Source: an uncultured Thermomicrobiales bacterium (GTDB lineage: Bacteria > Chloroflexota > Chloroflexia > Thermomicrobiales > UBA6265). From it: 64,000 nt of DNA. The DNA is taken from the NCBI GenBank assembly GCA_902806325.1, contig CADCWE010000179.1, positions 4,124 through 68,123 of the forward strand. The letters run 5' to 3'. Below, one piece after another: positions 24,684 through 52,995 of this stretch. Below the pieces are notes generated by a model. The model worked only from the letters and a program-made list of their open reading frames with translations. It did no database searches and was not told the DNA's origin. Position 1 is the stretch's first letter. Each line of letters begins with the position of its first letter. The translations under genes were made by a program, and so were the position numbers.

Positions 24684-25867
24684 GCGCCGGGGGGGGATCG
24701 CGTCCCCGCCGGTTCGATCGCCGGGGGGTGCTGCGTGCCGGTGCCGGGCTGGCGGTGTTGGCCATCGCCGGTTGCGGCGACGACGACGAGGTCGCCCAGG
24801 ACGCGACTCAGGTGCCGACCCCGGACTCGGTCCCAACCCAGGCTCCGATCGGGTCGCCGGTGCCCGGCTACGTCGACGTGGCCGAGAAATGGACCGGCCG
24901 GACGCTGACCATCGCCGGCCTCGGCGGCGCCTACCAGAGCGCCCAGGACGAAGCCTTCTTTAAGCCGTTCGCCGAGGCAACCGGCGTCGACATCGCGCTC
25001 GATGCGGCCTCCATCGGCGGCCTCACCGACCAGGTCGACGACGAGGCCGTGACCTGGGACGTGGTCGACCTGCCGACCGATCGGGTGCGCACCCTCTCCT
25101 CCGCCGATTACCTTTCCGCCATCGACACCCTGCTCGTCGACACGTCCCCCCTGTTCCCGGAGATCGTCGGCCAGTACGCAATCGGCGCGGCGTTCTTCTC
25201 CACCGTGATCGTCTACCCGGCCGCCGCCAACCCACCTGCCGGGTGGGTCGACTTTTGGGATCCGGCGCGTTTTCCCGGCCAGCGGGCCCTGCGCAAGACC
25301 CCGATCGGAACCATGGAATTCGCGCTGCTTGCCGACGGCGTGGCGCCCGACGACTTGTACCCCCTTGATGAGGAGCGGGCCTTCCGCAGCCTGGACCGGA
25401 TCAAGCCGTACGTCGCGTCCTGGTACGAGGACGGCAAGCAGCCGGTCGAGTTGATCGCCAACGCGGAGGTGGCCCTGGCCAGCGCCTGGAACGACCGCGC
25501 GGAGTTGCTGGACCTCGACGAGGTGGTGCGGGTCCAATGGCGCGGCGGCATGCTCTCAAGCCAGTCCTGGGTGGTCCCGCGGGGGGCACCGAACGCCGAC
25601 GTGGCGATGGACTTCGTCAACTTCGCGACCCGGGCGGTGCCCAACGCCAACTTCGCCCGGCTCGTCCCCTTCGGCCCGGTCAACCGGGACGCCTTCGCCC
25701 TCCTCCGCCCGGACCGCCTGGCCAGCCTGCCCAGCGCGCCGGACCACCTGGCCGTCCAGTTTCTAGAGAACGGGAACTTCTGGGCGGAGAACCTGGACCG
25801 GCTGCAAGAGCGGTTCGACGATTGGGTGATCGAGGAATTGCCGGAGACGCCGGAGGGGGAGGGATAA
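24680..25867 (+). CDS. ABC transporter periplasmic substrate-binding lipoprotein (PotD/PotF-like), paralogue
   Basis: MSAGGGSRPRRFDRRGVLRAGAGLAVLAIAGCGDD signal and lipobox. Blocks shared with the upstream SBP: FWDPARFPGQRAL / WWDGARYPEPRAL, FALLADGV, SAWN. An ATGA start/stop overlap joins the two genes. Confidence 0.7.
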   Translation: MSAGGGSRPRRFDRRGVLRAGAGLAVLAIAGCGDDDEVAQDATQVPTPDSVPTQAPIGSPVPGYVDVAEKWTGRTLTIAGLGGAYQSAQDEAFFKPFAEATGVDIALDAASIGGLTDQVDDEAVTWDVVDLPTDRVRTLSSADYLSAIDTLLVDTSPLFPEIVGQYAIGAAFFSTVIVYPAAANPPAGWVDFWDPARFPGQRALRKTPIGTMEFALLADGVAPDDLYPLDEERAFRSLDRIKPYVASWYEDGKQPVELIANAEVALASAWNDRAELLDLDEVVRVQWRGGMLSSQSWVVPRGAPNADVAMDFVNFATRAVPNANFARLVPFGPVNRDAFALLRPDRLASLPSAPDHLAVQFLENGNFWAENLDRLQERFDDWVIEELPETPEGEG

Positions 25868-35051: not shown

Positions 35052-35786
35052 CTATGGCCCGTCCTCCTCGATGTCCTCGATGACGATCTCGACGTCGTCC
35101 TCGCCGTCGTCGCGGTCGGGATTGGCGGCGGGGCGGTCGGAGGCGCGGACGGGGGCGGAGCCGCTCCCGGTGACACGGAAGACGAGGGAGTTGAGGAAGA
35201 CCGGGGCGTCGTCGTCGGGGCCGTCGGCGACCGAGACGTAGACGGCGTAGTCCCCGGTCGGCAGGGAACCGTTCAGCGCCAAGGGCAGCGCGACCCAGGC
35301 CGGGACGGGGTCGGTGATGTCGACGGCGGAGGCGCCGATGTCCACGCGGTCGGCGTTGCGCCAGACGGCGCGGACCTGTTGGCCGGGTCGGAGGTGGCTC
35401 AGTTTGGCGCCGGCGTAGACCGTGCCCGCGTCGGCGGGAACGGCGTCGTACTCGCCGTCGGGGCCGCCGGAGTCGACGCGGAGGGAAAGGGCGAGGGCTT
35501 CGAGACCGGTCGCGGCGGGCGCGGTTGGCTGGGGGCTGACCGCCGGGGAGGCGTATTGGGAGGCGATCCGGGTCGCCTGCTGGGCCGGCAGCTCGGCGCC
35601 GCGGGTGGCGGCGCGGCTCTGGCCGCGCCGGGCGTCGTCGGCCTCGCCGGTGGCGCAGGCGGCAAGGGCCGCCAGCAGCGTCGCGGCGAGCAGGACACGA
35701 CCGACCCCGCCCGCCCAACTCCGGGGTTCAGTCGGCGCGCGCGGGATCGGGTTGGGGTGGGGGCGGCCGGTACGGGCCGAACGCAT
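35052..35786 (-). CDS. Putative lipoprotein of unknown function
   Basis: Lipobox LLAALAACATG after a hydrophobic stretch. The C-terminal tail is acidic. The only in-frame start I find is the ATG at 35786, which overlaps the recombinase 3-prime end by 59 nt. Confidence 0.5.
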   Translation of the reverse strand: MRSARTGRPHPNPIPRAPTEPRSWAGGVGRVLLAATLLAALAACATGEADDARRGQSRAATRGAELPAQQATRIASQYASPAVSPQPTAPAATGLEALALSLRVDSGGPDGEYDAVPADAGTVYAGAKLSHLRPGQQVRAVWRNADRVDIGASAVDITDPVPAWVALPLALNGSLPTGDYAVYVSVADGPDDDAPVFLNSLVFRVTGSGSAPVRASDRPAANPDRDDGEDDVEIVIEDIEEDGP

Positions 35787-36843
35787 CCTGGTACTCCTCG
35801 CCCACCTCGATCGAGGACTGGTGGACGTAGATCCGGGTCGTGGCCGGGGAGGCGTGCCCGAGCAGGGTCTGCACGGTCGATTCGCGGACCCGGCGGCGGA
35901 CCAGCTCGGTCGCCAGACCGTGGCGGAACGAGTGGGGCGTGACCTCGCTCTCGATCCCGCACCGTTCGCAGAGCTGGCTGATGATCAGCTCGACCGTGCG
36001 CGGGCTGATCGCGCGGCCGACCTCGCCCAGTTTATCGCGCCCGCTGAAGGCGGGTAGGGCGGCGGCGCCGCGCACCGGGTCGCCGCGAGCCGCCCAATAG
36101 GCGGTCAGGGCGGCGCCGGTCTCGTGGTCGAAGTGGACCGTCCGGCTCTTGCCGCCTTTGGCGCGGTAGATCCCGGCGGTGCCGTTGACCAGGTCCACGT
36201 CGCGGCGGCGTAGGGCGACCAGCTCCGAGACCCGAACGCCGGTGCGGTAGAGGACCAAGACGATCGCCCGCACCTTCAGCCGGCGGAGTTCGGATTCTGG
36301 TCGCTCCTGAGGACGGTCCTCGCGGACGTGGGCGACCAACCGCTCGAGGTCCGCCAGCTTGACGTCCGGCGGCGGCGGGGTGAAGCGGGGCATCATCGCG
36401 GCGAGGCGGACCCGCAGCTTGTCCGTGCCGAGGGCGGGGTGGATGTCGTAGGCGGCGAGGTACGCGCAGAACTTGCGCACCGCGGCCAGGTTGTTCTGGG
36501 CGGTGCGCATCCGCGACACCTCCTCCGGCGTCCGCACGTCCGGCGGCACCAGCAGGGCGGCGAAGGCGGTGACGTGTTCCGGTTGGAGGACGGTGGCCGG
36601 GGCGGCATCGGCGTCGATGCCCTCGTGCTGAGCGAGGTGGCGGAAAAACTTGGCGACGCCGTGGCGGTACGTCTTGCGCGACCGGGGGGCGAGCCGGAGG
36701 TCGCCGAAAAACATCTCGGCGGCGGCGCCGAGGGTCAGGGGGACGGCGTCGGCCGGCGCGGCGACCGGCTCGGTTTCCGCGATCGGGTCGCGGTCTTGGC
36801 GGTCCATCGGCTCTCCCGCACGGTCATCTCTATGTACGTACAT
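35728..36843 (-). CDS. Tyrosine recombinase, XerC/XerD/phage-integrase family
   Basis: Catalytic set: RTGVRVSEL (R), KGGKSRTV (K), HSFRHGLAT (HxxR), LLGHASPATTRIYVH (H...Y). An N-terminal SAM-like domain is present. ATG at 36807 is an alternative start. Sequence alone cannot tell a housekeeping Xer from a mobile-element integrase. Confidence 0.85.
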   Translation of the reverse strand: MYVHRDDRAGEPMDRQDRDPIAETEPVAAPADAVPLTLGAAAEMFFGDLRLAPRSRKTYRHGVAKFFRHLAQHEGIDADAAPATVLQPEHVTAFAALLVPPDVRTPEEVSRMRTAQNNLAAVRKFCAYLAAYDIHPALGTDKLRVRLAAMMPRFTPPPPDVKLADLERLVAHVREDRPQERPESELRRLKVRAIVLVLYRTGVRVSELVALRRRDVDLVNGTAGIYRAKGGKSRTVHFDHETGAALTAYWAARGDPVRGAAALPAFSGRDKLGEVGRAISPRTVELIISQLCERCGIESEVTPHSFRHGLATELVRRRVRESTVQTLLGHASPATTRIYVHQSSIEVGEEYQDAFGPYRPPPPQPDPARAD

Positions 36844-42590: not shown

Positions 42591-43820
42591 GTGGCGGCGA
42601 ACGGGACCGGGGGGTGGCCGGACGCGATTGTGGTCGGCGGCGGGGTCGTCGGCTGCTCGATCGCCTACCGTCTGGCGGCGCGCGGCAAGCGGGTGCTGCT
42701 CTTGGAGCGGCGCGGGCTGGCGTCCGGTGCCTCCGGACGCAACGGCGGCATGACCGGCGCCGGCTCGGCGATGCACTCCGCCGCCGGCCGGGCAGTCTAC
42801 GCCCTGACCGCGGCCAACCTCTCGCTGCTGCCGGGGTTGGCGGAAGAGTTGGACGCCGACTTCGCCCTCCGCCTGCCGGGAACGCTCGACGTGGCGACCA
42901 CGGAGGCGCAGTGGGCCCACCTGGCCGAGAGCGCGGCCGAGCAGCGCGCCGCCGGTCTCGACGTCCGGCTGCTGGACCGCGACGAGGCCCGCGCCGCGAT
43001 GCCGGCCTTGTCCCCGGCCATCCTCGGGGCGTCGTTCGCCGGCGGGCGGGGCCACCTCTGGCCGTTCGCGCTGGTCCACGGGTTCGCGGACGCGGCCCGC
43101 CGGTTGGGCGTCGAGATCCGGGCCGGGGTCGAAGTCGAGCGATTGTCGCGGGTCGGGGACCGGGTGACCGGCGTGGTCGCCGGTGGGCAGCGGATCGAAG
43201 CCGACGACGTGGTCTTGGCGACCAACGCCTACACGCCCCACCTCCTGCCGGAACTTCCGCCCGGGGCGATCGTCCCCGCGCGGGGCCAGATCCTGGTCAC
43301 GAGCGCGGTACCGCCGCTGTTGCCGCACCCGTTCGGCACCAACTTCGACAAGGAGTACGGGCGCCAAACCCCGGACGGCAAGATCCTCTGCGGCGGTTTC
43401 CGCCGCCTGGACGACGACGAGGGCCTCGGCCACGAGGAGGAGCGGGTGACGCCGGCGGTGCTGGCCGGGATCGCCGGCTGCCTGGCCGGATTGTTCCCGG
43501 TCCTGCGCGACCGGGTCCGGGTGGTCCGGGCGTGGGCAGGGATCATGGGCTTCACCGCCGATGGGCTGCCGCTGATCGGGGCATTCCCCGGAACGCCGGG
43601 CTTGACCGTGGCCGCCGGCTTCAACGGCGGCGGCTTCTCCTGGGCCGCGATCGTCGGCCAAGTGGTCGCGGACCTTGTATCCGGGCGCGACCCGGGGTTC
43701 GACCTGGCGCCGTTCGACCCTGGTCGGTTCTCCGCGGGGAGAACCGCGTGGACCAACCCGTTCACGGCGGGCGAGCGCGCTCGGGTGGTCGGCGCACCGG
43801 CCCTGGCGGGGCCGTCCTGA
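42591..43820 (+). CDS. FAD-dependent oxidoreductase, DAO family (sarcosine/glycine/D-amino-acid oxidase-like)
   Basis: DAIVVGGGVVGCSIAYRLAARGKRVLLLE...GASGRNGG...C-terminal GFNGGGFSWA. GTG at 42591 is preceded by GGAGGG. The upstream part of the track ORF is a shadow of the glycosyltransferase. Confidence 0.8.
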   Translation: MAANGTGGWPDAIVVGGGVVGCSIAYRLAARGKRVLLLERRGLASGASGRNGGMTGAGSAMHSAAGRAVYALTAANLSLLPGLAEELDADFALRLPGTLDVATTEAQWAHLAESAAEQRAAGLDVRLLDRDEARAAMPALSPAILGASFAGGRGHLWPFALVHGFADAARRLGVEIRAGVEVERLSRVGDRVTGVVAGGQRIEADDVVLATNAYTPHLLPELPPGAIVPARGQILVTSAVPPLLPHPFGTNFDKEYGRQTPDGKILCGGFRRLDDDEGLGHEEERVTPAVLAGIAGCLAGLFPVLRDRVRVVRAWAGIMGFTADGLPLIGAFPGTPGLTVAAGFNGGGFSWAAIVGQVVADLVSGRDPGFDLAPFDPGRFSAGRTAWTNPFTAGERARVVGAPALAGPS

Positions 43821-44045
43821 CTCCGGGGTTCGGGGTTGGCCGGATCTCCCCCGGTCCTTTCCGCGGAGACCGTGCTGGCGCGATCTCCCGGCATCGTCCC
43901 GGGCGCCGCGTGCCGGCGCAACGCGGCCGCCCCCATCGGGGCGATCCGGACGTCGGAAGGTCCCGGCCGCCATCATCCGCGCCAGCGCAATCCGCCCCCG
44001 GCCGGGGCGAGCCGGAACGTGGGTTCCGGCTCGCCCCCCACGGCG

Positions 44046-44534
44046 CTACCCCGCGCTCACGCGGGTGCCGTCGACGTTGAGCCTGCAGGTGCATCCCGGC
44101 GGGCATACGTATCCGAAGACCCGGGAGAAGGTGCCGCTGCAGGTTCCCGGCACGGGAGGTTCTACGCGGGTGCCGCCGTAGACGCCGCTGCAGCGGCTCC
44201 CCTCCGCGCATCCGAGCCCGGCGGGCGGGGAGCAGTAGCCGCCGCAGATGACCGACGGCGCGCCGCCGGGTTCCCCCGCGCAGCACCGGGTCGCCGGGTC
44301 GCACTAACCGCTGGCGCAGTGGTCGGTGCGGACGCAGGTCGCGCCAGCGGGCCGGGCCCTCGCCTCGGTCCGCCCGGCGCCGACGAGCGCCGCCGCGCCG
44401 CCACCGATCCCACCGAGCAGGCCCGTGAGCCGCCGGCGCCGGGAGGTCCACCCGCCAGCGCCCGCGTCAGGTCGTGAAGCGTTGCCCGTCCTTGCCGTGC
44501 CTCCTCCTCGTGTCCCGCCGCGCCCCGACCCCAC
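44046..44534 (-). pseudogene. Tat-signal, cysteine-rich small secreted protein interrupted by an in-frame TAG
   Basis: The ORF 44304-44534 ends ...WTSRRRRLTGLLGGIGGGAAALVGAG...ATCVRTDHCASG-TAG. The same frame continues for 85 codons: CDPATRCCAGEPGGAPSVICGGYCSPPAGLGCAEGSRCSGVYGGTRVEPPVPGTCSGTFSRVFGYVCPPGCTCRLNVDGTRVSAG-TAG (13 Cys in total). I translated this by hand from the reverse strand. Confidence 0.45.
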
Positions 44535-44593
44535 CGACGATCCGGTGGCCGTGGGGGGGCGCTACCAATCGCCACCCGGCGCCACGCGCCGTG

Positions 44594-44839
44594 TCAAACG
44601 CCCTGCCGCTTGGAGACCGCCGGCACGCGGCCGAGGACCGCGACGTGCGGCAGGTCCGGCAGGCCGCGGGCGGCGGCGACCCACGCCGCCCGCCGGTCCA
44701 AGCCCAGCGGGGATGGCTGCGGCTGCTCCGCTCCCGGCTGCGGCCACGCCGTCCGCGCCAACCTGGCCCGCGCCGCGCGAACCGCGTCCTGGCACCGTCG
44801 ATTGGTATCGACTTCTTGGAAATTCAGGTTCGCGACCAT
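44594..44839 (-). CDS. Possible 81-aa protein of unknown function
   Basis: The ATG at 44839 is preceded by GGAGGA, 8 nt upstream. The protein begins MVANLNFQEVDTNRRCQDAVRAARARL. GC3 is high after the first codons. It lies between the beta-propeller gene and the Cys-rich gene on the same strand. I recognise no family. Confidence 0.3.
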   Translation of the reverse strand: MVANLNFQEVDTNRRCQDAVRAARARLARTAWPQPGAEQPQPSPLGLDRRAAWVAAARGLPDLPHVAVLGRVPAVSKRQGV

Positions 44840-45001
44840 CGCTGCGGTCCTCCGTTGCCCCGCGGCTTGGCAGCCCCGCCCGCCGCCCTCGCTCGCTCGT
44901 CGGTCATCACCATCCGCCAAGGGTGGCAACACGCCCTACGGCGTTCCGGGAGCGGCGGGGACGATTACGCCAGCCCCGGCCGCCGCCACCGAGCCGGTGG
45001 A

Positions 45002-46351
45002 TCAGCGTGACCGGACCGCCAGCCCGTGCGGATCGGATGTGACCGCCCCGTCGGCGCCGAGGTGGACGATCGGTGCCACCCCGACCAACTCGCCCGTGCG
45101 ACCGTCAGGTCCGACCCGTGCGACGCCGAGCCCAGGCGAGGAGCCGACGGCGTTGTTCGCCCCCTCCACGTTGGCCGAGAGGGGCACGGGACCGCGCAGG
45201 GCCATGAAGACCCAGTCCCCGTCCGGCGAGGCGGCGATCAGGTCCGGGGCCGGATCGGCCGAGAACTCGCCGGCCAGATCGATCTCGGCGACGACCTGGT
45301 CGGTCGCGACCTCGACGACGATGATCCGGTTGCCGGCGCGGTCGGCGACCCAGACGTAGGCGTCCCCGTTGACCAGGACGCAGCCGTGCGTATCGGTCCC
45401 GGTGTGGCTGTAGTGGAAGATCTCGGTCGGGGCCGGCGTGTTGGGCGGGCTCGGCGCGGTCGAGAAGGCAGCGACCTCGAAGGCGTAGAGGTCGGCCGCG
45501 AAGGGGGATAACGCCGTGCCGCCGCTGGAGTTGAGGTAGAGCGTGCCGGCCGTCTCGGCCCCGACGCAGCCGTTGGGGCGGATGGTGGCGGCGTCGTACT
45601 CGGCGACGATCGCCATTGGCGTTGCCAGGCTATCGACGACGAAGAGACCGCCGCCGCGCAGAGTCACGGCCGTGAAGCGCGCGTCGGCGGTGACGACCGG
45701 GCAGGCCGGGGCGTTGTCCGGCCGCAGGGTCGGATCCTCGCAGGCCGCGCCGCTGGGGGTGGTGCAGATGGCGAGGTCGAGGGTCGCCGCGTCTTCCAGG
45801 GCGAAGATCCCGGCCGCGTAGTCGGTCCGGATGCGCTGCAAAAGCTTGCCGTTTTGGTTGGCGACGATGACGTAGGACTCATCCGGCGCCGGGTAGGCGG
45901 CGTGGGCCTGCTCCCCGACGTCGCGGCACGCGACGGGGGTCCGCGATGCCGCGTCGATGAACAGGACGTGCCCGGTGGCGACGAAGGCCACCACGGCGTG
46001 GGTTTCGCTCGCGTTGACCATCAACATGTGCGGGCGCTTAGGGGCGGTGCCGGTCTGGGCCAGGCAGAGCGCCCTGGCCTCGCCGCCCAGGTCGACGACC
46101 TCCGGCTCGGCGGTGGCGGCCGCCGTTGTCAACCCGGCGCTGGGGTAGACGTACAGCGTGCCGCCGCCGTCGGCGGTCGTGTCCGATTGGTCCATGACCC
46201 AGACTTCGAAGGACGAACGGGCGAATGCGGCCTGCGCCGAGGCATCCGAAGGGGACCCGGCGCCTCCAATCCCGACCGAGAACGCCAACGCCAGCGGCAA
46301 AGTAACGGTGACGACAACCAGCGACAGGCGGGCCAACGAGAGCGGGTTCAT
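45002..46351 (-). CDS. Secreted beta-propeller protein (YVTN/YncE / cytochrome-d1-like repeat family)
   Basis: Signal peptide MNPLSLARLSLVVVTVTLPLALAFS. Repeated blade-like segments include VWVMDQ, HAVVAFVATGHVLFIDA, YVIVANQNG, GGLFVVDS, YVWVADRAGNRIIVVEV, SPDGDWVFMALRGP. Confidence 0.65.
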   Translation of the reverse strand: MNPLSLARLSLVVVTVTLPLALAFSVGIGGAGSPSDASAQAAFARSSFEVWVMDQSDTTADGGGTLYVYPSAGLTTAAATAEPEVVDLGGEARALCLAQTGTAPKRPHMLMVNASETHAVVAFVATGHVLFIDAASRTPVACRDVGEQAHAAYPAPDESYVIVANQNGKLLQRIRTDYAAGIFALEDAATLDLAICTTPSGAACEDPTLRPDNAPACPVVTADARFTAVTLRGGGLFVVDSLATPMAIVAEYDAATIRPNGCVGAETAGTLYLNSSGGTALSPFAADLYAFEVAAFSTAPSPPNTPAPTEIFHYSHTGTDTHGCVLVNGDAYVWVADRAGNRIIVVEVATDQVVAEIDLAGEFSADPAPDLIAASPDGDWVFMALRGPVPLSANVEGANNAVGSSPGLGVARVGPDGRTGELVGVAPIVHLGADGAVTSDPHGLAVRSR

Positions 46352-47172
46352 GGTGAGTCCTCAAGATCCGCGAGACGGGGCCGGCGATCCGGCGCACCGG
46401 ACGAGTGGACGGTCACGCCGCCAGGTCGCGGATTGACGTCCGCCCGGATCGGAGTCGGTCTCGGGGGATCGCCGGCCGTTCTTCGCATCGGAGGGCCGAG
46501 TCAGCATCGCGTGGGATGGTCTGCCCCCCGTCGAACGCCCCGTCGTTGCATCGCCGCGGTGTGTCCGTCGCGGTACCGTGGCCGCGAGTCGGGTGGCCGG
46601 GCACGAGCGGCGCGCTCGCTCGAGCGGCGAGGCGTTGCTGTCGGGAGTCCCGCAGCTCCGCGGCCAACTCATCGTCGTACGCCGCATCCGTCGGCGACCT
46701 CGTCCCAAGGGCGGCGAGGTCGTGTTTGTTCGAACGTGGGAACTAGTGGCTGTCGTGCGCGAGACCACCGCCGCCGCGCAGCGCCGCTCCGGTCACTCGG
46801 AGCCGGTTGCCGACCGCGGTCACCGCCACGTACGAGGGTCGACGCGATGCGGCGGGTACGCTGCCAGTCGACCGGAGCGGCCCGAACCGGTCGGCGTCTG
46901 CGACCCGCGTCCGATGCTCGGCGATGCGTGCGTTTGCCGTGACCAAGTCCAGGTCTAGGGTCATCGTGGTGTCCTACCTCCATGGGTAGTTGGGTGGTGG
47001 CTGCCCCGCGTTGGGTGGTCTCCACGGTAGATCTATGGACTGCCCGGTTCATCGGTACGAGTACCCTGTTTGGCCCCGGTGCGGTACTCAATCGCGCGCA
47101 CGATGTTGCCACGCCGCCGCTGGCCCGGGGGGACGCGAGGCCGAGGGCCGGCGATCTGGCGGCGGCGGTCGG

Positions 47173-49674
47173 TTAAGGCGTCGTGGGATCATCGGGCTCG
47201 ACGAGCCCGGCGGCGATGGCGGCGCTGACGGCCGCGGTCCGCGTCCGGACGCCGAGCTTGGCGAGGATATGGGCAACGTGGCGCTCGACGGTGCGGACAC
47301 TGAGGAAGAGCGTCTCGGCGATCTCGCGGTCGGCGCTCCCGGCCAGGAGCAGGCCGAGCACCTCGTGCTCGCGCGCCGAAAGCGTGACGGCGGCACGGTC
47401 GAGCGCTCCCGCGGCAGCAGCGGGTGGGGACATGCTCCGCACCTCCGCCGTCGCGCTCGCCACCGTGAGCCCGCGCCCAACCGCCCAGGCAGCTTGGAGG
47501 TCCTGCTCTCCCAACGCCGCGCGGGCGACGGCCAAGGCGCGCTCGTGCGCCGCCCGGTCGGTCGGGACGACAAACGTGCCGCCGAACTGCTCCCGCAGCG
47601 CCTCCGCGGCGCCCAAGAGCCGCGCGGCCCGCACCGGCTGATGCCAGGCCGCCGCCGCCAGCGCCGCCCCTTCCAGGGCGTCGACGACGACGCGCAGATC
47701 CCCCCGCTCGCCCAGCAACCCCAGGCACTCGCGATAGAACGTCACCGAGCCGGCGTAGTCGCCTTGGTCGCGCGCCACGTCACCCAGGTCGCGCAGCGAG
47801 CGGACGACGCCGATGGCGTAGCCGTGGGCGCGGCAGGTGGCGAGCGACCGCTCGTGCCGCGCCCTGGCGAGGGCGAAGTCCCCCCGGCCGTGCGCGGCGA
47901 GACCGAGGTTCGCGAGCACCATCCCGGTCACGGACGCGGCGACGATCGGGTCCTCGATGGCCGCCGCTTCGACGAGCGCCTCCTCGAGCACGCGCTCGGC
48001 ACGGTCGTGCGTCCCGCGGTCGATCGCGATCCCGCCTCGCCGGAGGAGCGCCATGGCCAGGGTTTGCGCGTCGTCGTTCTCGCGCAGAAGCGCGACCGCC
48101 TCGACGATGAGGCGATCCGCGCGCTCGGTCTCACCCTGGAACGCCAGCAACCACGCCAACCCGACGAGCGCCCGGGCGCGCGCGGACCGGTCACTTCGCG
48201 GGTCGGACGCCAGCGCGCGGTCCAGCCAGATGCTCCCTTCCCGATAGTGGCTGTGGCCGTACCAGAACCCGCCCAGCGCGGCAGCCAGACGAAGCAGGCG
48301 CCCGCCGTCGGTGCGCCGATCGAGCCAGCCGAGGGCCGCGCGGAGGTTGCCGTGCTCGGCATCCAGGCGCCGCAATGCTCGCTCGCCGTCCGGCAGGATC
48401 CATGCCGACTGGCTTCCCTCCGCCAAGGCCAGGCACCAGTCCGCGTGTTCGTCACCGACGGCGTCGCGCTCGTTCTTGGCGACGAGTTGCTCCAATGCAA
48501 ACGCCCGAATGGTCTCCAACATGGAAAAGCGCGCCTCAGGTGCCCCCGCTTCCTGCCGCACCAGGCTCTTGTCCACCAACGATGAGACGAGGTCGAGGGT
48601 CGGGGGCCGGGGGCCGAGAGCAGAACCATCGCTCGTTCGAATCGTATCGCTCGACGCTCGACTCAGGGACTCGGCCGCCGCCAAGGGAAAGCCGCCGACG
48701 AAGACGCCGAGGCGCCGAAACAGGATCCGCTCGTCGTCCGTCAGGAGGTCATAGCTCCAGGCGACGGCGTTGTCCATCGTACGCATGCGATCCGGCGCGT
48801 TCCGCGGAGCGGCGACCGGCAGCGGCAGTCGCTCCTGGATCCGGGCCAGGAGCGCGGCGGGCGGGAGGACGGCGCTTTGCGCGGCGGCGAGCTCGATCGC
48901 GAGGGGCAGGCCATCGAGGCGCCGGCAGATGGCGGCCACCAGCGGAACGGTGGTCTCCGTCAGGACGAAGGCCGGGTTGACCGCGAGGGCGCGCGCCGCA
49001 AAGAGCCGGACCGCCGCCGATCCCATCAGGAGTTCGAGCGTGTCGCGCTCGTCGGTGCCGGGCAGGTCCAACGGCGGGACCGGGAAGGCGTGTTCGCCGG
49101 GGACCCGCAGAAGTGCCCGGCTCGTCGCCAGCACCTTGAGGTGGGGGCAGGCCGCGAGCAGGTCGCTCACGAACGGGGAGGCGGCCAGGACGTGCTCGAA
49201 CGTATCGAGGACGAGCAACGCCTCCGCGTCGCGAAGGGCGACCAGCAGGGCGTCGCTCGCCGAAATGCCGCGGGTCTCCTGGACGCCGAGGGAGCGGGCG
49301 ACGGAGGCCGCGACCAGGCCGGCGTCGGGAACGGCGGCCAGTGGAACGAAGCGGACCCCGTCGGCGAGCGTGGGCATGGCCTCGCGGGCGATCTCCAGGG
49401 CGAGGTGCGTCTTGCCGATGCCGCCGGCGCCGGTCAGGGTCAGGAGGCGGACATCGAATCGGCGCAGGAGCGCCCGGACCGCCGCGACCTCGCGCTCGCG
49501 GCCGATCAACGGCGTGAGCGCCCGCGGCAACGGGGCGAACCGGTGCTCGCCGCCGCGCGGCGACGACCGCGGGGGGGAACGCTGGTCGTGGAGCGGCGAC
49601 AGAGCGGAAGCCATGAGGTTCTCCCGGAGACCGTCCGGTATCGGTCGCCCCAGGGGCGACCGCTGGCCGGTCAT
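47173..49674 (-). CDS. STAND-type transcriptional regulator: NB-ARC ATPase, TPR array and C-terminal LuxR-type HTH
   Basis: Walker [14 protein letters not shown], Walker [16 protein letters not shown] signature [14 protein letters not shown], long TPR-like helical repeats, and the Lux[49 protein letters not shown]. Confidence 0.85.
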
Positions 49675-52100
49675 GCCGGCGTGGAGGGACCGGGCGCCGC
49701 AAACCCGGCGTCGATGGCGGCGCGGACGGCCGCCGTCCGCGTCCGAACGTCGAGCTTGGCGAGGATATGGGCGACGTGGTGCTCAATGGTCCGTACGCTG
49801 AGGGCCAGCGCCTGGGCGATCTCGCGGTCGGGGTGCCCGGCCACGAGCAGGCGGAGGACGTCGACCTGCCTCGGGGTCAGGGATCCGAGCCGCGGGCTGA
49901 CCACGGCCCGCTCTTCGACACCGGCGGGCCGCTCCGGCGGCGCAAGGGCCTCCGCGACGACCTGGGCCAGCGGCAGCGCCCGCCCGGCCGCCCAGGCGGT
50001 CGCGAACGACGCCTCGCCCAAGACTGCGCGAGCGGCGGTCGTCCCCTGCTCATGGGCCGCTTGGGCCAGCGGGTCCCGCATCGTAATGCCCGTGGTCTCG
50101 CGCAGCCGTTCCGCCGCCGCGTACCAGCGCGTGGCGGTCAGCGCCTCGCGGGCGGCCGCAGCCGCCCACGCCAGGCCCTCCAGCGCGTCGGCGATGGCCC
50201 GCCGCTCGTCGCCGTCCCAGGCCAGCGCCAGGCCGTCGCGGTAGCACGCGGTTGCGCGGTCCAGGTCTCCCTGACTGCGCGCGACGTTGCCGAGGTCGAC
50301 GAGGGACAGCGTCTCTCCCCAACTGTTCCCGGCCGCCCGTCGCTCCGCCAATGCCTCCTCGTGGTAGGCCATCGCCGTCGCGAGCCGGCCCTGACCGTGG
50401 ACCGCCGTGCCGAGGTTGGCGAGGGCCGAGCTCGCCAGCGCCGTCGTCTGGCGCGGATCGACCATGTTCCGTGCCACGGTCAGAGCGTTCCAGAAGTGGG
50501 CCGCGGCCAGGTCGTAGTCCCCTCGGACCTGGGCCACCGCGCCACGCGCGATCAGCGCGCGGGTGGTCTCCACAGGATCGTCGGCCGCGAGCGCGAGCGA
50601 ATGGCTTTCCACCGCCAGGCGGTCGGCCTCCGCGAGGTCGCCCCGCGTCACCATCATCAGGCTCAACAGGCCCGCCATCTTGGCTTGGGTCGGGGTCGGC
50701 GCCGCGGCCGGCGTCCGCACCCGGCCCAGCCAGGTCAGGCCGTCGCGCAGGTATCCGCGGATGAACCAGAACCAGGCCAGGGCGCCGGCGAGGCGAGCGA
50801 TGTCTGCCTCCGCGCCGGTCTCCGCCAGCCAGCCGAGGGCCGCTCGCAGATTGGCGTGTTCGGCATCAAGGCGGTCGAGTCGACGCCGGTCGCCGGGGAG
50901 GGACGGCTCCGCTTGCCACCGCTCGGCAAATGCCAGGAAATACGCGGCATGGGCCTGGACGGCGGACTCCGCTTCGCCGCTCGCCGCCAGCCGTTCCGCC
51001 GCGTATTCGCGGATCGTCTCCAGCATCCGGTAACGCGCCGTCCCGTCACCGTCGAGCTCGTTCCGCAGCAGACTCGCCTCGACCAACGCGGCGATACCGT
51101 CGAGAGTGATCGGTGCCGCGTCATCAGTGCTCGGGTCCCCGCCCCCGTTCCCTGTCACCCACTCGGCGGCCTCCAGGGTGCAGCCGTCGGCAAAGACGGA
51201 GAGGCGGCGGAACAGGGCTTGTTCCCCGGGCGAGAGCAGTTCGTAGCTCCAGGCGATCGCGTTGCGCAAGGTGCGGTGGCGGTCCGGCCGATCGCGTGCG
51301 CCGCCGGTGAGCAGCGGCAGCCGGCGTTCGAGCCGCGTCAGCAAGGCCGCCGGCGGCAGCACGGCGACCCGCGCCGCCGCCAGCTCGATGGCGAGCGGCA
51401 GCCCGTCCAGGCGCCGACAGATCGCCGCCACGACGGTAGCCTGCTCCGTCGACAGGACGAAGTCGGCCTGCACCGCCCGCGCTCGCTCGACGAATAGCCG
51501 GATCGCCTCGTACGCCGCCACCTCCGCCAGGACCGGATCGTCGGTCGCCGGCGGGTGCGCCAGCGGCTGGACGACGACGCGGTGTTCCCCGGAGACGCGC
51601 AATGCGGTGCGGCTGGTCACGAGCATCTTGAGTCCGTCGCAGGCGCCGAGCAATTCGGTCAGGAGCGGCGCCGCTTCCACGACCTGTTCGAAGTTATCAA
51701 TCACCATCAGCAGTTGCCGGTCGTGGAGGAAGGCCACCAGGTCCTCCACCACCGGGCGGTCGCCGCGCTCGCGCAGCCGCAACGCCCGGGCGATGGTCGG
51801 TCCGACGAGCGCGGGGTCCCGAACCTGCGCGAGCCCGACGAAGACGACGCCGTCGGTGAAGTCCGTCGCCATCCCGGTTCCGACGGCCAGGGCGAGGCGC
51901 GTCTTGCCGATGCCGCCGGGGCCGGTCAGGGTCAGGAGGCGGACGTCGGGGTCTCGCAGTCGTTCCTGGACGATCTCGATCTCGCGCTCGCGACCGATCA
52001 GCGGCGTGAGCGGGACCGGAAAGGGGTTGAGCTCGTCGCGGGCGCCAGGCAGCAACGTGAGGGATTGCCGGACCAGATCCGGTGACGGCGAGTGAGCCAT
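49671..52100 (-). CDS. STAND-type transcriptional regulator: NB-ARC ATPase, TPR array and LuxR HTH (paralogue of the downstream gene)
   Basis: [83 protein letters not shown]. Its stop overlaps the next start (ATGA at 49671-49674). Confidence 0.85.
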
Positions 52101-52452
52101 GCCGTCATCCTCACGAGCGCGTGGTGGCGACCTCCGCGCGGTGCGGTGCGGGTTCGAGCGAGGGGCGGGGCGGCCGGAGACGGCGGGGAATCAGGGTGTG
52201 CCTGGGTCGCACTGGACGCACGCCAAGGTACACCGGCGAACCAAGGGTGTCAAACCCCGCCGCGCGGCAGCGACGCCGGTCGTGGCGGGCTGCTGGCGAT
52301 CGACGACCTCTCCAGCGCGCTGGGCGCCGAGGCGAAGCGCGGGCTCACCGTCGGGCGTCCAATGGGCGGATCGGCGACGGTAGACTCAGCGGCGAGGAAC
52401 GACGGCCACGCTCGATCGCGGGCCCACGGACGGCGCCGGTGTTACGGCCGCC

Positions 52453-52908
52453 AACCTCCCCTACGGCAAGATCCTCTTCGGCGCCTTCCGGCGCCTGGAC
52501 GAGGACGAAGGCATCGGCCACGACGAGGAACGGGTGGCGCCGGCGGTGCTGGCCGGGATCGCCGGCTGCCTGGCCGGATTGTTCCCGGTCCTGCGAGACT
52601 GGGTCCGGGTCGTCCGCGCCTGGGCCGGGATCATGGGCGTCACCGCCGACGGGCTGCCGCTGATCGAGAGGACGCCCGGAACCCGTGGCCCGTTCCTGAC
52701 GGCGGGCTTCAACGGCGGGGGCTTCTCCTGGGCGGCGATCGCCGGCCGGGTCGTCGCCGACCTGGTTTGTGGGCGCTCCCCGGGCTTCGACCTGGCGCCG
52801 TTTCGGCCGGGCCGGGTCGCGGAGGGCGGCACCGCCTGGAGCAACCCGTTCACCGCCGGGAAGCGGAGCGCGGTGGTCGGGGCGCCGGCGCTGGCGGGCC
52901 CGGGCTGA
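52453..52908 (+). pseudogene. 3-prime fragment (copy B) of the DAO-family oxidoreductase gene at 42591-43820
   Basis: It translates to NLPYGKILFGAFRRLDEDEGIGHDEERVAPAVLAGIAGCLAGLFPVLRDWVRVVRAWAGIMGVTADGLPLI...GFNGGGFSWAAI...NPFTAGKRSAVVGAPALAGPG-stop. This is collinear with residues ...PDGKILCGGFRRLDDDEG... to the stop of the intact gene. It includes a 58-nt perfect match (52538-52595 = 43450-43507). There is no N-terminal half and no start. Confidence 0.85.
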
Positions 52909-52995
52909 CGAAAGGGTTCGGGCGGAACCAAGGGCGAGCCGGCATGCCCGTGGCCATTGCTGGCGCGATGGGGATGGCCGAGGGCCGCCGGCCCG

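What the first reader, a model, noticed from the sequence alone, without database searches (positions are those of the whole stretch)
44046..46351. Secreted beta-propeller, an 81-aa ORF and a Tat-exported 13-Cys mini-protein broken by an amber codon
Three co-directional ORFs lie on the minus strand:
- a signal-peptide beta-propeller (449 aa)
- an SD-preceded 81-aa ORF
- an ORF with a textbook twin-arginine signal (TSRRRRLTGLLGG...) that stops at TAG (44304-44306) after about 20 mature residues

After that TAG, the same frame continues for 85 more codons that are extremely Cys-rich (CC, CxxxC and CxC patterns).

A propeller heavy subunit paired with a small, Tat-exported, disulfide-rich light subunit is the architecture of quinoprotein amine dehydrogenases such as MauB/MauA. 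Those enzymes are relevant to the amine-catabolic flavour of this window. However, the Trp residues needed for a TTQ/CTQ cofactor are absent, so this is not a canonical member.

Three readings are possible. It may be a recently inactivated gene, a sequencing error, or a read-through or two-piece arrangement. The whole set sits inside the inserted module described above, downstream of two STAND-LuxR regulators.
Basis: partly seen in the sequence, partly recalled or inferred. Interest (0 to 1): 0.6.

Follow-up and report, generated by a model that had tools for sequence, protein, structure and literature searches.

The report
Broken Cys-rich gene beside orphan propeller
The three ORFs and the in-frame amber codon are real, but the small Cys-rich gene looks like a strain-specific decaying gene that merely lies next to a widespread stand-alone secreted beta-propeller, not the light subunit of a quinoprotein-like enzyme, so the finding is largely ordinary.

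Summary
On the minus strand lie a 449-aa propeller with a signal peptide (45002-46351), an SD-preceded 81-aa ORF (44594-44839), and a Tat-like ORF stopped by TAG (44304-44306). The same frame then runs 85 more codons with 11 Cys.

- **The TAG is not a read error.** A second assembly, 99.6% identical with 52 SNPs over 13 kb, has the same codon.
- **TAG is an ordinary stop here.** It ends 12 of 33 genes in the window.
- **The post-TAG region was coding.** GC3 is 0.82-0.95, and it is homologous (z = 8.8) to a rare six-Cys repeat protein (P0124). Four of the 12 family-conserved Cys are replaced by one-step neighbours of TGC. No start codon follows the TAG.
- **The segment is lineage-specific.** The 81-aa ORF and the Tat/Cys segment are absent from all 80 other propeller loci. 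In the five closest relatives, nucleotide homology ends at or within about 35 nt of the propeller stop codon.
- **The propeller is not MauB-like.** It belongs to a large unclassified YVTN/lactonase-type seven-blade family (more than 3,600 proteins, bacteria and archaea) with no conserved neighbour. Neither it nor the mini-protein matches the Mau Pfam families.

Verdict: a pseudogenised accessory secreted Cys-rich gene next to a stand-alone propeller. Interest is low. The propeller family itself is the more interesting unknown.

The parts
45002..46351 (-). Secreted seven-bladed beta-propeller, 449 aa. It belongs to a large unclassified YVTN/YncE/lactonase-type family and is a stand-alone gene.
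   Evidence: GC3 is 0.91 and the codon score is gene-like. More than 3,656 homologues were found, and 353 species genomes encode a relative, at 47-91% identity. The AF2 model has pLDDT 88.6 and a seven-blade topology. PDB matches are generic. Pfam YNCE scores 16.3 bits, below the 27.1 cut-off. Against strain L004 there are 7 synonymous and 2 non-synonymous SNPs.
44594..44839 (-). Orphan 81-aa ORF. It is annotated 'hypothetical protein AVDCRST_MAG73-2727' in the public record, and whether it is a real gene is uncertain.
   Evidence: GGAGGA lies 8 nt upstream of the ATG. GC3 is 0.87, but the codon score is only +0.14 bits/codon. There is no Pfam, NCBIfam or PHROG hit. Its 90% cluster has 2 members. 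It is absent from 80 propeller loci. The single SNP against L004 is non-synonymous, P to R.
44307..44534 (-). N-terminal piece of the interrupted gene. It has a Tat-like signal (TSRRRR, a Gly/Ala/Leu h-region, and ARA before the likely cleavage site) plus 16 mature residues with 2 Cys. The part upstream of 44444 is probably not coding in this frame.
   Evidence: Translation is. The codon score is -0.83 bits/codon for 44445-44534 and +0.13 for 44307-44444. No Tat-signal HMM hit was found. There is a weak profile match to the A2 family of Tat-signal Cys-rich proteins.
44304..44306 (-). In-frame amber codon (GGT TAG TGC), a genuine nonsense codon.
   Evidence: The codon is identical in the second assembly L004, which differs from the window at 52 other positions over 13.35 kb. 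TAG terminates 12 of 33 confident genes in the window. No suppressor tRNA was found in the window.
44046..44303 (-). Post-amber part of the same frame: 85 codons with 11 Cys. It consists of the end of an N-terminal C-x5-C-x4-C-x5-CC module and two degenerate copies of a six-Cys repeat (PGxCxGxC...CxxGCxC...GxCV).
   Evidence: GC3 is 0.90. Exhaustive phmmer gives P0124 at E = 1.3e-4. BLASTP gives E = 5e-7 and 1e-3. The Smith-Waterman score is 127 against shuffles of 51 +/- 8.6, z = 8.8, with 0 of 2000 shuffles reaching it. Four of the 12 repeat Cys are replaced by AGC, CGC, TTC and CGC, all one step from TGC (chance about 0.001). The first in-frame start after the TAG is GTG 44153, which would give only 35 aa.
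44004..44037 (-). Perfect 15-bp GC-rich hairpin with a 4-nt loop, 8 nt after the distal stop codon. It is a likely transcription terminator of the unit and lies between convergent genes.
   Evidence: Found by the repeat finder as I8. RNAfold gives dG = -41.9 kcal/mol. It has no T-tract, so the consensus terminator scan does not call it.

Best explanation
The locus holds three unrelated things.

1. **A stand-alone secreted propeller.** It is conserved, Sec-exported and seven-bladed, of an uncharacterised but very widespread YVTN/lactonase-type family. In this Thermomicrobiales clade it travels with STAND-LuxR regulators.
2. **An orphan 81-aa ORF** of doubtful status.
3. **The remnant of an accessory gene.** It once encoded a small protein with a Tat-type signal followed by Cys-rich modules: one C-x5-C-x4-C-x5-CC module and two six-Cys repeats.

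The accessory gene has been knocked out by a nonsense mutation (TAG 44304-44306) that is fixed in the sampled population. Translation ends 16 residues after the predicted signal-peptide cleavage site. The downstream 85 codons have no start codon of their own, so they are not made.

The high GC3 that persists after the TAG means inactivation was recent. The Cys losses and the lack of a good start suggest the gene was already drifting.

The ORF81 + Tat/Cys segment sits in a hypervariable junction immediately after the propeller stop codon. It has no functional pairing with the propeller.

Shown here: the reality of the TAG, the coding signature, the homology to a Cys-repeat protein, and the absence of linkage. 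Inferred: loss of function, Tat export of the ancestral product, and its disulfide or metal-binding nature.
For: **The TAG is real.**
- It is present in two assemblies that differ at 52 sites over 13.35 kb.
- TAG ends 12 of 33 window genes.
- There is no canonical in-frame start between the TAG and GTG 44153.

**The region was coding.**
- GC3 is 0.82-0.95 across the TAG in one frame.
- The only homologue in 1.84 billion representatives with a matching repeat architecture is P0124, an uninterrupted six-Cys repeat protein. The shuffle z-score is 8.8.

**Signs of decay.**
- Four of the 12 repeat Cys are replaced by single-step neighbours of TGC, leaving 13 Cys, an odd number.
- The 30 codons between the only start and the RR motif are non-coding-like.
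- The gene caller on L004 did not call the ORF.

**Relaxed selection nearby.**
- In L004, the neighbouring regulator LuxR-B also carries a fresh CAG->TAG nonsense allele.

**No linkage to the propeller.**
- None of the 80 genomic propeller loci scanned has a match (0/80).
- Homology of the five closest relatives stops at or just after the propeller stop, and in L001 the DAO gene follows directly.
- No neighbour cluster is shared by more than 9 of 82 loci.
Against: - GC3 after the TAG is still as high as in live genes, and a strong hairpin follows the distal stop. The full-length frame therefore still looks like a complete transcription unit.
- There are no SNPs between the two strains across 43980-44648, so relaxed selection cannot be demonstrated. 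About 2.6 SNPs would be expected, giving P(0) of about 0.07.
- The comparison family is represented by a single, 5'-truncated metagenomic protein at about 36-45% identity. The 'lost' Cys could reflect a divergent subfamily rather than decay.
- I could not verify that the two assemblies come from different samples.
- A relative, L005, also has a Tat-signal Cys-rich gene of a different family 1.1 kb downstream of its propeller. This is a coincidence that a pure 'no association' model does not predict.
Confidence: 0.6

Rival explanations
1. The gene is alive. The amber codon is read through or suppressed at useful frequency, giving a 162-aa precursor that is exported by Tat as a 13-Cys protein.
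For: An undiminished coding signature (GC3 about 0.9) runs downstream of the TAG, with a terminator-like hairpin only after the distal stop. A second in-frame TAG exists in a neighbouring gene of strain L004. Both would be tolerated if amber suppression operated.
Against: TAG terminates 12 of 33 genes in the window, so there is no reassignment. No suppressor or Pyl tRNA was found in the window. No Rfam element was found around the site. The Cys count is odd and repeat Cys are lost. No homologue carries an in-frame stop.
Confidence: 0.05
2. The TAG is a sequencing or assembly artefact, and the real genome has a sense codon and an intact gene.
For: The source is a metagenome-assembled genome, and I could not confirm that the two assemblies come from independent samples.
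Against: Two assemblies, differing at 52 positions over 13.35 kb, agree at this codon and have no differences within about 300 nt on either side. Substitution errors at consensus level are rare in short-read assemblies.
Confidence: 0.05
3. Nothing here is or was a gene. The Tat-like and Cys-rich ORFs are chance open frames in 74% GC intergenic DNA.
For: Long ORFs occur in all six frames of this window. The codon-model score of the Cys region is about 0 against the antisense model. There is no hit in the 5.8-billion-protein word search or in two metagenome scans. The ORF is not called by gene finders.
Against: Strong third-position periodicity holds over about 400 nt in a single frame. It is the only high-GC3 Cys-dense stretch in the window. 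Homology to P0124 is significant and in register with the repeats (z = 8.8).
Confidence: 0.1
4. The propeller and the mini-protein are heavy and light subunits of a quinoprotein-amine-dehydrogenase-like enzyme, now disabled or made in two pieces.
For: A propeller gene and a small, signal-bearing Cys-rich ORF lie co-directionally within 1 kb, next to a DAO-type FAD oxidoreductase. One relative (L005) also has a Tat-signal Cys-rich gene downstream of its propeller.
Against: There is no match to Me-amine-dh_H, Me-amine-dh_L or QH-AmDH models. There is no Trp in the mature mini-protein. No mauD/E/G-like or radical-SAM maturation genes appear among the neighbours scanned. The fold match to QHNDH beta is no better than to dozens of unrelated propellers. 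Linkage is absent in 80 of 80 other loci, and the propeller family has no conserved partner. The L005 gene belongs to a different family, and other members of that family are not next to propellers.
Confidence: 0.03
5. The 76-aa ORF ending at TAG is itself the functional product: a Tat or Sec signal releasing a 16-residue, 2-Cys secreted peptide. The downstream Cys-rich frame is an irrelevant relic.
For: The RR-to-TAG part scores slightly coding-like (+0.13 bits/codon), and it has a plausible ARA cleavage site.
Against: There are no homologues of such a short product. The Cys module C-x5-C-x4-C-x5-CC is cut in the middle by the TAG when compared with the A2 family. The start context is poor.
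Confidence: 0.05

Closest known systems
Methylamine dehydrogenase MauB/MauA (TTQ) and quinohemoprotein amine dehydrogenase QhpB/QhpC (CTQ)
   Same: A seven-bladed propeller gene lies near a gene for a small, signal-bearing, Cys-rich polypeptide. The genomic surroundings include an amine/amino-acid-type FAD oxidoreductase.
   Different: There is no sequence-family match for either partner. There is no Trp for TTQ/CTQ. No maturation genes are nearby. The structural similarity is generic. The pairing is not conserved in any of 80 other loci.
YVTN / YncE / lactonase-type seven-bladed beta-propellers (PF21783, PF10282, TIGR02276; e.g. PDB 1L0Q, 3VGZ)
   Same: The fold and weak repeat-level sequence matches agree, and 1L0Q is the top PDB hit. 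An N-terminal export signal is present.
   Different: It scores below every curated threshold (16.3 against 27.1 bits for YNCE). It forms its own tight family, 47-64% identical across phyla and into archaea, with invariant His and Cys residues not described for YncE. No function is known.
P0124 / L085: uncharacterised six-Cys repeat protein from a JGI metagenome
   Same: The repeat unit PGxCxGxC...CxxGCxC...GxCV is shared in register. Both come from high-GC DNA and lie next to STAND-LuxR regulator genes.
   Different: P0124 has at least 4.5 intact repeats with all six Cys and no internal stop. The window copy has two repeats lacking 4 of 12 Cys, a different N-terminal module, and the amber codon. 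P0124's N-terminus is missing, so whether it has a signal peptide is unknown.
A2 family: 108-120-aa Tat-signal, 12-Cys proteins of Thermomicrobiales-type MAGs (P0125-P0135)
   Same: Both have an N-terminal twin-arginine signal followed directly by a C-x5-C-x3/4-C-x5/6-CC module of identical overall span. One member lies 1.1 kb downstream of the propeller orthologue in L005.
   Different: The similarity is weak: hhalign gives 94% probability, but hmmsearch gives only 4-14 bits, mostly from the signal peptide. The C-terminal halves are unrelated. The family is intact and conserved (mean 67% column identity), whereas the window gene is interrupted.

Membership tests
Methylamine dehydrogenase (MauB heavy / MauA light) | The heavy chain matches Me-amine-dh_H (PF06433). 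| tested here: not met
   Pfam scans of the window protein (E<=1) and of 26 family members (E<=0.01) give only weak YNCE, Lactonase and Cytochrom_D1 hits.
Methylamine dehydrogenase (MauB heavy / MauA light) | The light chain matches Me-amine-dh_L (PF02975) and has the two Trp that form TTQ. | tested here: not met
   There is no Pfam or NCBIfam hit at E<=1. The only Trp in the joined product lies before the RR motif, and there is none in the mature part.
Methylamine dehydrogenase / QHNDH | Maturation genes (mauD/E/G, or radical-SAM qhpD and peptidase qhpE) lie in the cluster. | tested here: not met
   The ten neighbour ORFs scanned, all within 35728-56431, are MMPL, a glycosyltransferase, a DAO oxidoreductase, two STAND-LuxR regulators, Uma2, an integrase, a cupin, APH and one without a hit.
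Methylamine dehydrogenase / QHNDH | Propeller and small-subunit genes are consistently linked across homologues. | tested here: not met
   None of the 80 genomic propeller loci scanned (0/80) has a tblastn match to the mini-protein, ORF81 or P0124. The largest neighbour cluster covers 9 of 82 loci.
YVTN/YncE-type seven-bladed beta-propeller | Seven four-stranded blades, with structural similarity to YVTN or YncE structures. | tested here: met
   The AF2 model has pLDDT 88.6 and 28 or more strands in seven groups. The top Foldseek hit is 1L0Q at E = 1e-12, and YncE 3VGZ scores E = 4e-10.
YVTN/YncE-type seven-bladed beta-propeller | The sequence scores above the curated Pfam or NCBIfam threshold. 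| tested here: not met
   YNCE scores 16.3 against 27.1 bits. TIGR02276 scores 17.5 against 27.85. TIGR03866 scores 21.9 against 287. It is therefore fold-level kin, not a family member.
Tat (twin-arginine) signal peptide | An S/T-R-R-x-F-L-K-like motif, a moderately hydrophobic h-region and an AxA cleavage site. | tested here: inconclusive
   The motif TSRRRRLTGLLGGIGGGAAALVGAGRTEARA is visible. PF10518 and TIGR01409 give no hit at E<=10. No TatP-type predictor is available. The n-region and start codon are unclear.
P0124-type six-Cys repeat proteins | Repeats with six Cys in the pattern C-x3-C-x(8-14)-C-x3-C-x-C-x7-C. | tested here: inconclusive
   Homology is significant. Each of the two window repeats keeps only 4 of 6 Cys.
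Pseudogene (nonsense-inactivated) | A verified in-frame stop inside a region homologous to an uninterrupted protein, with no re-initiation possibility. | tested here: met
   The TAG is shared by two assemblies. P0124 and the A2 proteins are uninterrupted. The next in-frame start is 50 codons downstream.
Pseudogene (nonsense-inactivated) | Relaxed selection (dN/dS near 1, further lesions). | not testable with these tools
   There are zero SNPs between the only two available sequences in 43980-44648. A proposed frameshift in the signal n-region was not statistically supported.

The most novel reading that the evidence does not exclude
The propeller is the real novelty. It represents a large family of secreted seven-bladed propellers that no curated family captures. 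Members are 47-64% identical from Thermomicrobiales to Acidobacteriota, Nitrospira, methanotrophs and Thermoplasmata archaea. Invariant His residues (H108, H150, H322, H442) sit at the start of the innermost strands of four blades. That geometry is known from central-channel metal centres such as CuZ of NosZ. The family could therefore be an undescribed extracytoplasmic metalloenzyme.

A secondary and much less likely novelty is that the amber-interrupted Tat/Cys gene is expressed by read-through. Two in-frame TAGs occur in this module in strain L004.
Probability: 0.2. Interest if true: 0.6.

Novelty: new member of a known kind. Interest (0 to 1): 0.17.

Why it matters
As posed, the finding matters little. 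It is a strain-specific, nonsense-inactivated accessory gene in a desert-soil Thermomicrobiales MAG, and the proposed quinoprotein-like two-subunit enzyme is not there.

Two by-products have some value:
- Small families of twin-arginine-signal, Cys-rich mini-proteins exist in these bacteria (the A2 family and the P0124-type repeat protein). Tat export of Cys-dense proteins hints at cofactor or metal loading before export.
- The propeller belongs to a very widespread, strongly conserved, functionally blank family that would repay biochemical study.

Tried and rejected
**Searches for homologues of the mini-protein**
- The word-index search of 5.8 billion proteins with the joined product gave nothing at E<=10.
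- The exhaustive phmmer search gave four hits. Three (P0121-P0123) were rejected as repeat-amplified spurious matches: a HYR-like giant protein, a cadherin-like protein with only 2 Cys, and a Gly/Ala repeat protein.
- Two metagenome-contig scans, with the joined product and with extended P0124, found no relatives.

**Second-lesion (frameshift) idea**
- The +1 frame reads LHDLTRALAGG just before TSRRRR, which resembles the FDEVTRSLG n-region of the A2 family. A one-base repair raises the A2 HMM score from 4 to 14 bits, and hhalign gives 94%.
- The n-region motif alone does not rank among the top hits in a six-frame search of the window. The idea is therefore not adopted.

**Annotation and element searches**
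- PHROG search of ORF81, the mini-protein and P0125: nothing.
- Rfam search of 43500-47400: nothing.
- tRNA scan for a suppressor: only two over-long 'tRNA-Ala' calls, probably false.

**Scans that proved uninformative**
- A window-wide scan for other in-frame stops flanked by coding signal was swamped by antisense-frame artefacts.
- The search for insertion-element ends around 43600-45200 gave no convincing terminal repeats.

**Unavailable or negative structure searches**
- The PDB sequence-profile search for the propeller gave only repeat-level matches.

**L-NosZ lead**
- The NCBIfam hit scored 12.9 bits against a cut-off of 700. It is not a member, and the papers found were not pursued.
Full report
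**Source and setting**

The window is about 72% GC. Exact protein look-ups identify it as a contig of the uncultured Thermomicrobiales MAG AVDCRST_MAG73. In that record the 81-aa ORF and the propeller are annotated as hypothetical proteins 2727 and 2728.

Around the finding lie the following genes:
- an MMPL transporter and a glycosyltransferase;
- a DAO-type FAD oxidoreductase on the plus strand, convergent with the finding;
- two STAND-LuxR regulators upstream on the minus strand (47173-49674 and 49671-52100);
- further out, a Uma2 nuclease, and an integrase at 35728-36843.

*Propeller.* The minus strand carries a 449-aa ORF (45002-46351) with an N-terminal hydrophobic signal peptide. GC3 is 0.91 and the codon-usage score is typical of the window's genes.

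*81-aa ORF.* Its ATG is at 44839, with GGAGGA 8 nt upstream.

*Interrupted frame.* The frame from 44534 reads ...WTSRRRRLTGLLGGIGGGAAALVGAGRTEARARPAGATCVRTDHCASG-TAG (44304-44306). It continues open for 85 codons with 11 Cys to a second stop at 44046-44048.

*Coding signature.*
- Third-position GC stays at 0.82-0.95 in this one frame from about 44460 to 44046, straight across the amber.
- It is the only Cys-dense, high-GC3 stretch in the whole window in any frame.
- A perfect 15-bp hairpin (dG -41.9 kcal/mol) sits 8 nt after the distal stop, so the full-length frame is laid out like one transcription unit.

*Weaker points.*
- The only canonical in-frame start (GTG 44534) is 30 codons upstream of the RR motif, in sequence that does not look coding in this frame.
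- Tat-signal HMMs give no hit.
- ORF81 has only marginal coding statistics.

**Is the amber real?**

L004 is an ENA metagenome contig carrying the same genes. It is 99.6% identical over 13,350 nt, with 52 substitutions and one indel.
- It has the same TAG, and no difference anywhere in 43980-44648.
- A consensus-level sequencing error shared by two assemblies that differ elsewhere is unlikely. I could not establish that the samples are independent.

TAG is a normal terminator here: 12 of 33 confident genes in the window end in TAG. No suppressor tRNA or RNA element was found locally. After the TAG the first in-frame start is GTG 44153, which would give only 35 aa. The 85 codons therefore cannot be made as a separate piece.

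**What the interrupted gene is related to**

*Searches.*
- The joined product has no hit in the 5.8-billion-protein word search and none in two metagenome scans.
- The exhaustive HMMER search of 1.84 billion representatives gave four hits, three of them repeat-amplified noise.

*P0124.* This fourth hit is a Cys-rich repeat protein whose ORF runs off the 5' end of a 904-nt contig.
- Its unit is PGxCxGxC...CxxGCxC...GxCV, with six Cys, repeated at least 4.5 times without interruption.
- The window's post-amber sequence contains two such units in register: BLASTP E = 5e-7 and 1e-3.
- The Smith-Waterman score is 127, against 51 +/- 8.6 for 2000 shuffles, none of which reaches it.
- Each window unit keeps only four of the six Cys.
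- The four replaced positions are AGC, CGC, TTC and CGC, every one a single step from TGC. Only 18% of non-Cys codons in the window's genes have that property, giving a chance of about 0.001. These positions were therefore ancestrally Cys.
- The total of 13 Cys is odd.

*A2 family.* The module that the amber cuts, C-x5-C-x4-C-x5-CC, resembles the first module of a small family (A2, 11 members). These are intact 108-120-aa proteins with a twin-arginine signal and 12 Cys.
- hhalign gives 94% probability, and in its gapless alignment the amber falls on an invariant Cys column.
- With HMMER the match is weak and mostly signal peptide, so I treat it as a resemblance only.
- A tempting second lesion, a 1-nt frameshift joining LHDLTRALAGG to TSRRRR, was not statistically supported.

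**Is there a propeller/mini-protein pair?**

No. The propeller family is large.
- More than 3,656 proteins were found in the word search.
- Relatives occur in 353 species-level genomes, from Thermomicrobiales, Actinomycetota, Acidobacteriota, Nitrospira, Rokubacteria, Planctomycetes and methanotrophs to Thermoplasmata archaea, at 47-91% identity.

In the 80 genomic loci fetched with 4-kb flanks, none has a tblastn match to the Tat piece, the Cys piece, ORF81 or P0124. All-against-all clustering of neighbouring ORFs finds no partner shared by more than 9 of 82 loci.

In the five closest relatives (83-91% nucleotide identity in the propeller), homology ends at or within about 35 nt of the propeller stop codon. 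What follows differs in each:
- L001: the DAO gene, only 45 nt away;
- L003: a hydrolase;
- L009: a transporter;
- L031: a STAND-LuxR gene;
- L005: an A2-family Tat/Cys-rich gene 1.1 kb downstream.

The ORF81 + Tat/Cys segment, roughly 43821-45001, is therefore a lineage-specific filling of a hypervariable junction. The L005 case is a curious parallel, but its gene belongs to a different family, and other members of that family are not next to propellers.

**What the propeller is**

- It scores below threshold for every curated family. YNCE gives 16.3 against 27.1 bits, with only repeat-level hits to TIGR03866, hydrazine synthase beta and L-NosZ. There is no hit to the methylamine dehydrogenase heavy-chain family.
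- The AF2 model is confident (pLDDT 88.6, pTM 0.85) and seven-bladed.
- Foldseek against the PDB returns a flat list of generic propellers. It is led by the archaeal YVTN S-layer domain 1L0Q, B12-binding BtuG lipoproteins and 6-phosphogluconolactonases. QHNDH beta is at rank 34 and NosZ at rank 49.
- Against strain L004 it shows 7 synonymous and 2 non-synonymous differences, consistent with a live gene.
- The alignment shows many invariant residues, including six Cys and five His. Four of the His lie at the first residues of the innermost strands of four blades. This suggests, but does not show, a central-channel metal or active site.

**Mechanistic reading**

The best-supported account has four parts.
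- The propeller is a stand-alone secreted protein of unknown function. In this clade it is kept next to STAND-LuxR regulators; six of six clade loci have one.
- The neighbouring small gene once encoded a Tat-signal, Cys-rich modular protein. It was acquired or retained only in this lineage.
- It is now truncated by a fixed amber mutation 16 residues into the mature part.
- The persistence of GC3 argues for a recent knockout. The Cys losses and the poor start region argue that it was already drifting.

A fresh CAG->TAG nonsense allele in the adjacent regulator LuxR-B of strain L004 shows that nonsense alleles are circulating in this module. Strictly, it is equally compatible with amber suppression, which I rate as unlikely.

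**Comparison with the known, and verdict**

The MauAB/QHNDH analogy fails every membership test that could be run:
- the sequence families;
- the Trp residues needed for the cofactor;
- the maturation genes;
- conserved linkage.

What remains is an ordinary kind of thing. It is a nonsense-inactivated accessory gene for a rare, uncharacterised secreted Cys-rich protein, beside an orphan ORF and a member of a large, uncharacterised propeller family. Interest in the finding as posed is low. The propeller family and the small Tat-signal Cys-rich families are modest leads in their own right.

Noticed in passing
window 43356-43834 and 52443-52922: The 3' end of the DAO-type oxidoreductase gene is present twice in the same orientation at 82% nucleotide identity. 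The second copy is only a C-terminal fragment of about 160 aa. The two copies bracket the whole module TatCys-ORF81-propeller-LuxRB-LuxRA, which suggests the module was brought in or rearranged by recombination between DAO homologues.
   Followed up: partly
window 48136-48138 (L004 4214-4216): In the sister strain L004, codon 513 of the STAND-LuxR regulator next to the propeller is TAG instead of CAG. This splits the gene into 492-aa and 293-aa calls. It is a second amber allele in the same 8-kb module.
   Followed up: yes
window 45002-46351; loci L005-L084: The propeller family is very widespread (353 species genomes, bacteria and archaea) and strongly conserved (47-64% identity across phyla). 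It falls below all Pfam and NCBIfam thresholds and has no conserved gene neighbour. Invariant His108/150/322/442 sit at the start of the inner strands of four blades, so a central-channel metal site is possible.
   Followed up: partly
L005 6471-6797: The 79%-identical propeller orthologue of Thermomicrobiales MAG19 has an intact 108-aa Tat-signal, 12-Cys gene 1.1 kb downstream. The gene belongs to a small conserved family (A2, 11 members, N-terminus MDxRKFDEVTRSLGxxxxRRGVLKG). No Pfam or PHROG domain assignment was found, only a sub-threshold TAT_signal hit.
   Followed up: partly
L085 1-904: P0124 is the only credible homologue of the Cys-rich region. Its ORF is truncated at the contig's 5' end. 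It is followed 113 nt later by the start of a STAND-LuxR regulator that is 55-60% identical to the window's two regulators. Cys-repeat genes and these regulators are therefore neighbours in at least two lineages.
   Followed up: partly
window 44004-44037: A perfect 15-bp GC-rich inverted repeat with a 4-nt loop (dG -41.9 kcal/mol) lies between the convergent Cys-rich frame and the DAO gene. It is a likely T-tract-less terminator.
   Followed up: yes
window 43769-43864 and 24743-24835: ARAGORN calls two unusually long 'tRNA-Ala' genes (96 and 93 nt). The first overlaps the DAO 3' end and has no Rfam tRNA match, so it is probably a false positive. The second was not checked.
   Followed up: partly
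window 46352-47172: The 820-nt gap between LuxR-B and the propeller has no convincing ORF. It is nevertheless conserved at about 80% nucleotide identity in L003 and L009. In L001 and L005 the same position holds DAHP-synthase and EamA genes instead. It is a possible regulatory region.
   Followed up: no
window 44304-44306 vs alignment A2 column of Cys61: In the gapless hhalign alignment of the N-terminal Cys module with the A2 family, the amber codon falls exactly on an invariant Cys column, and the overall C1-to-CC span is identical (16 residues). The similarity is weak, so this may be coincidence.
   Followed up: partly
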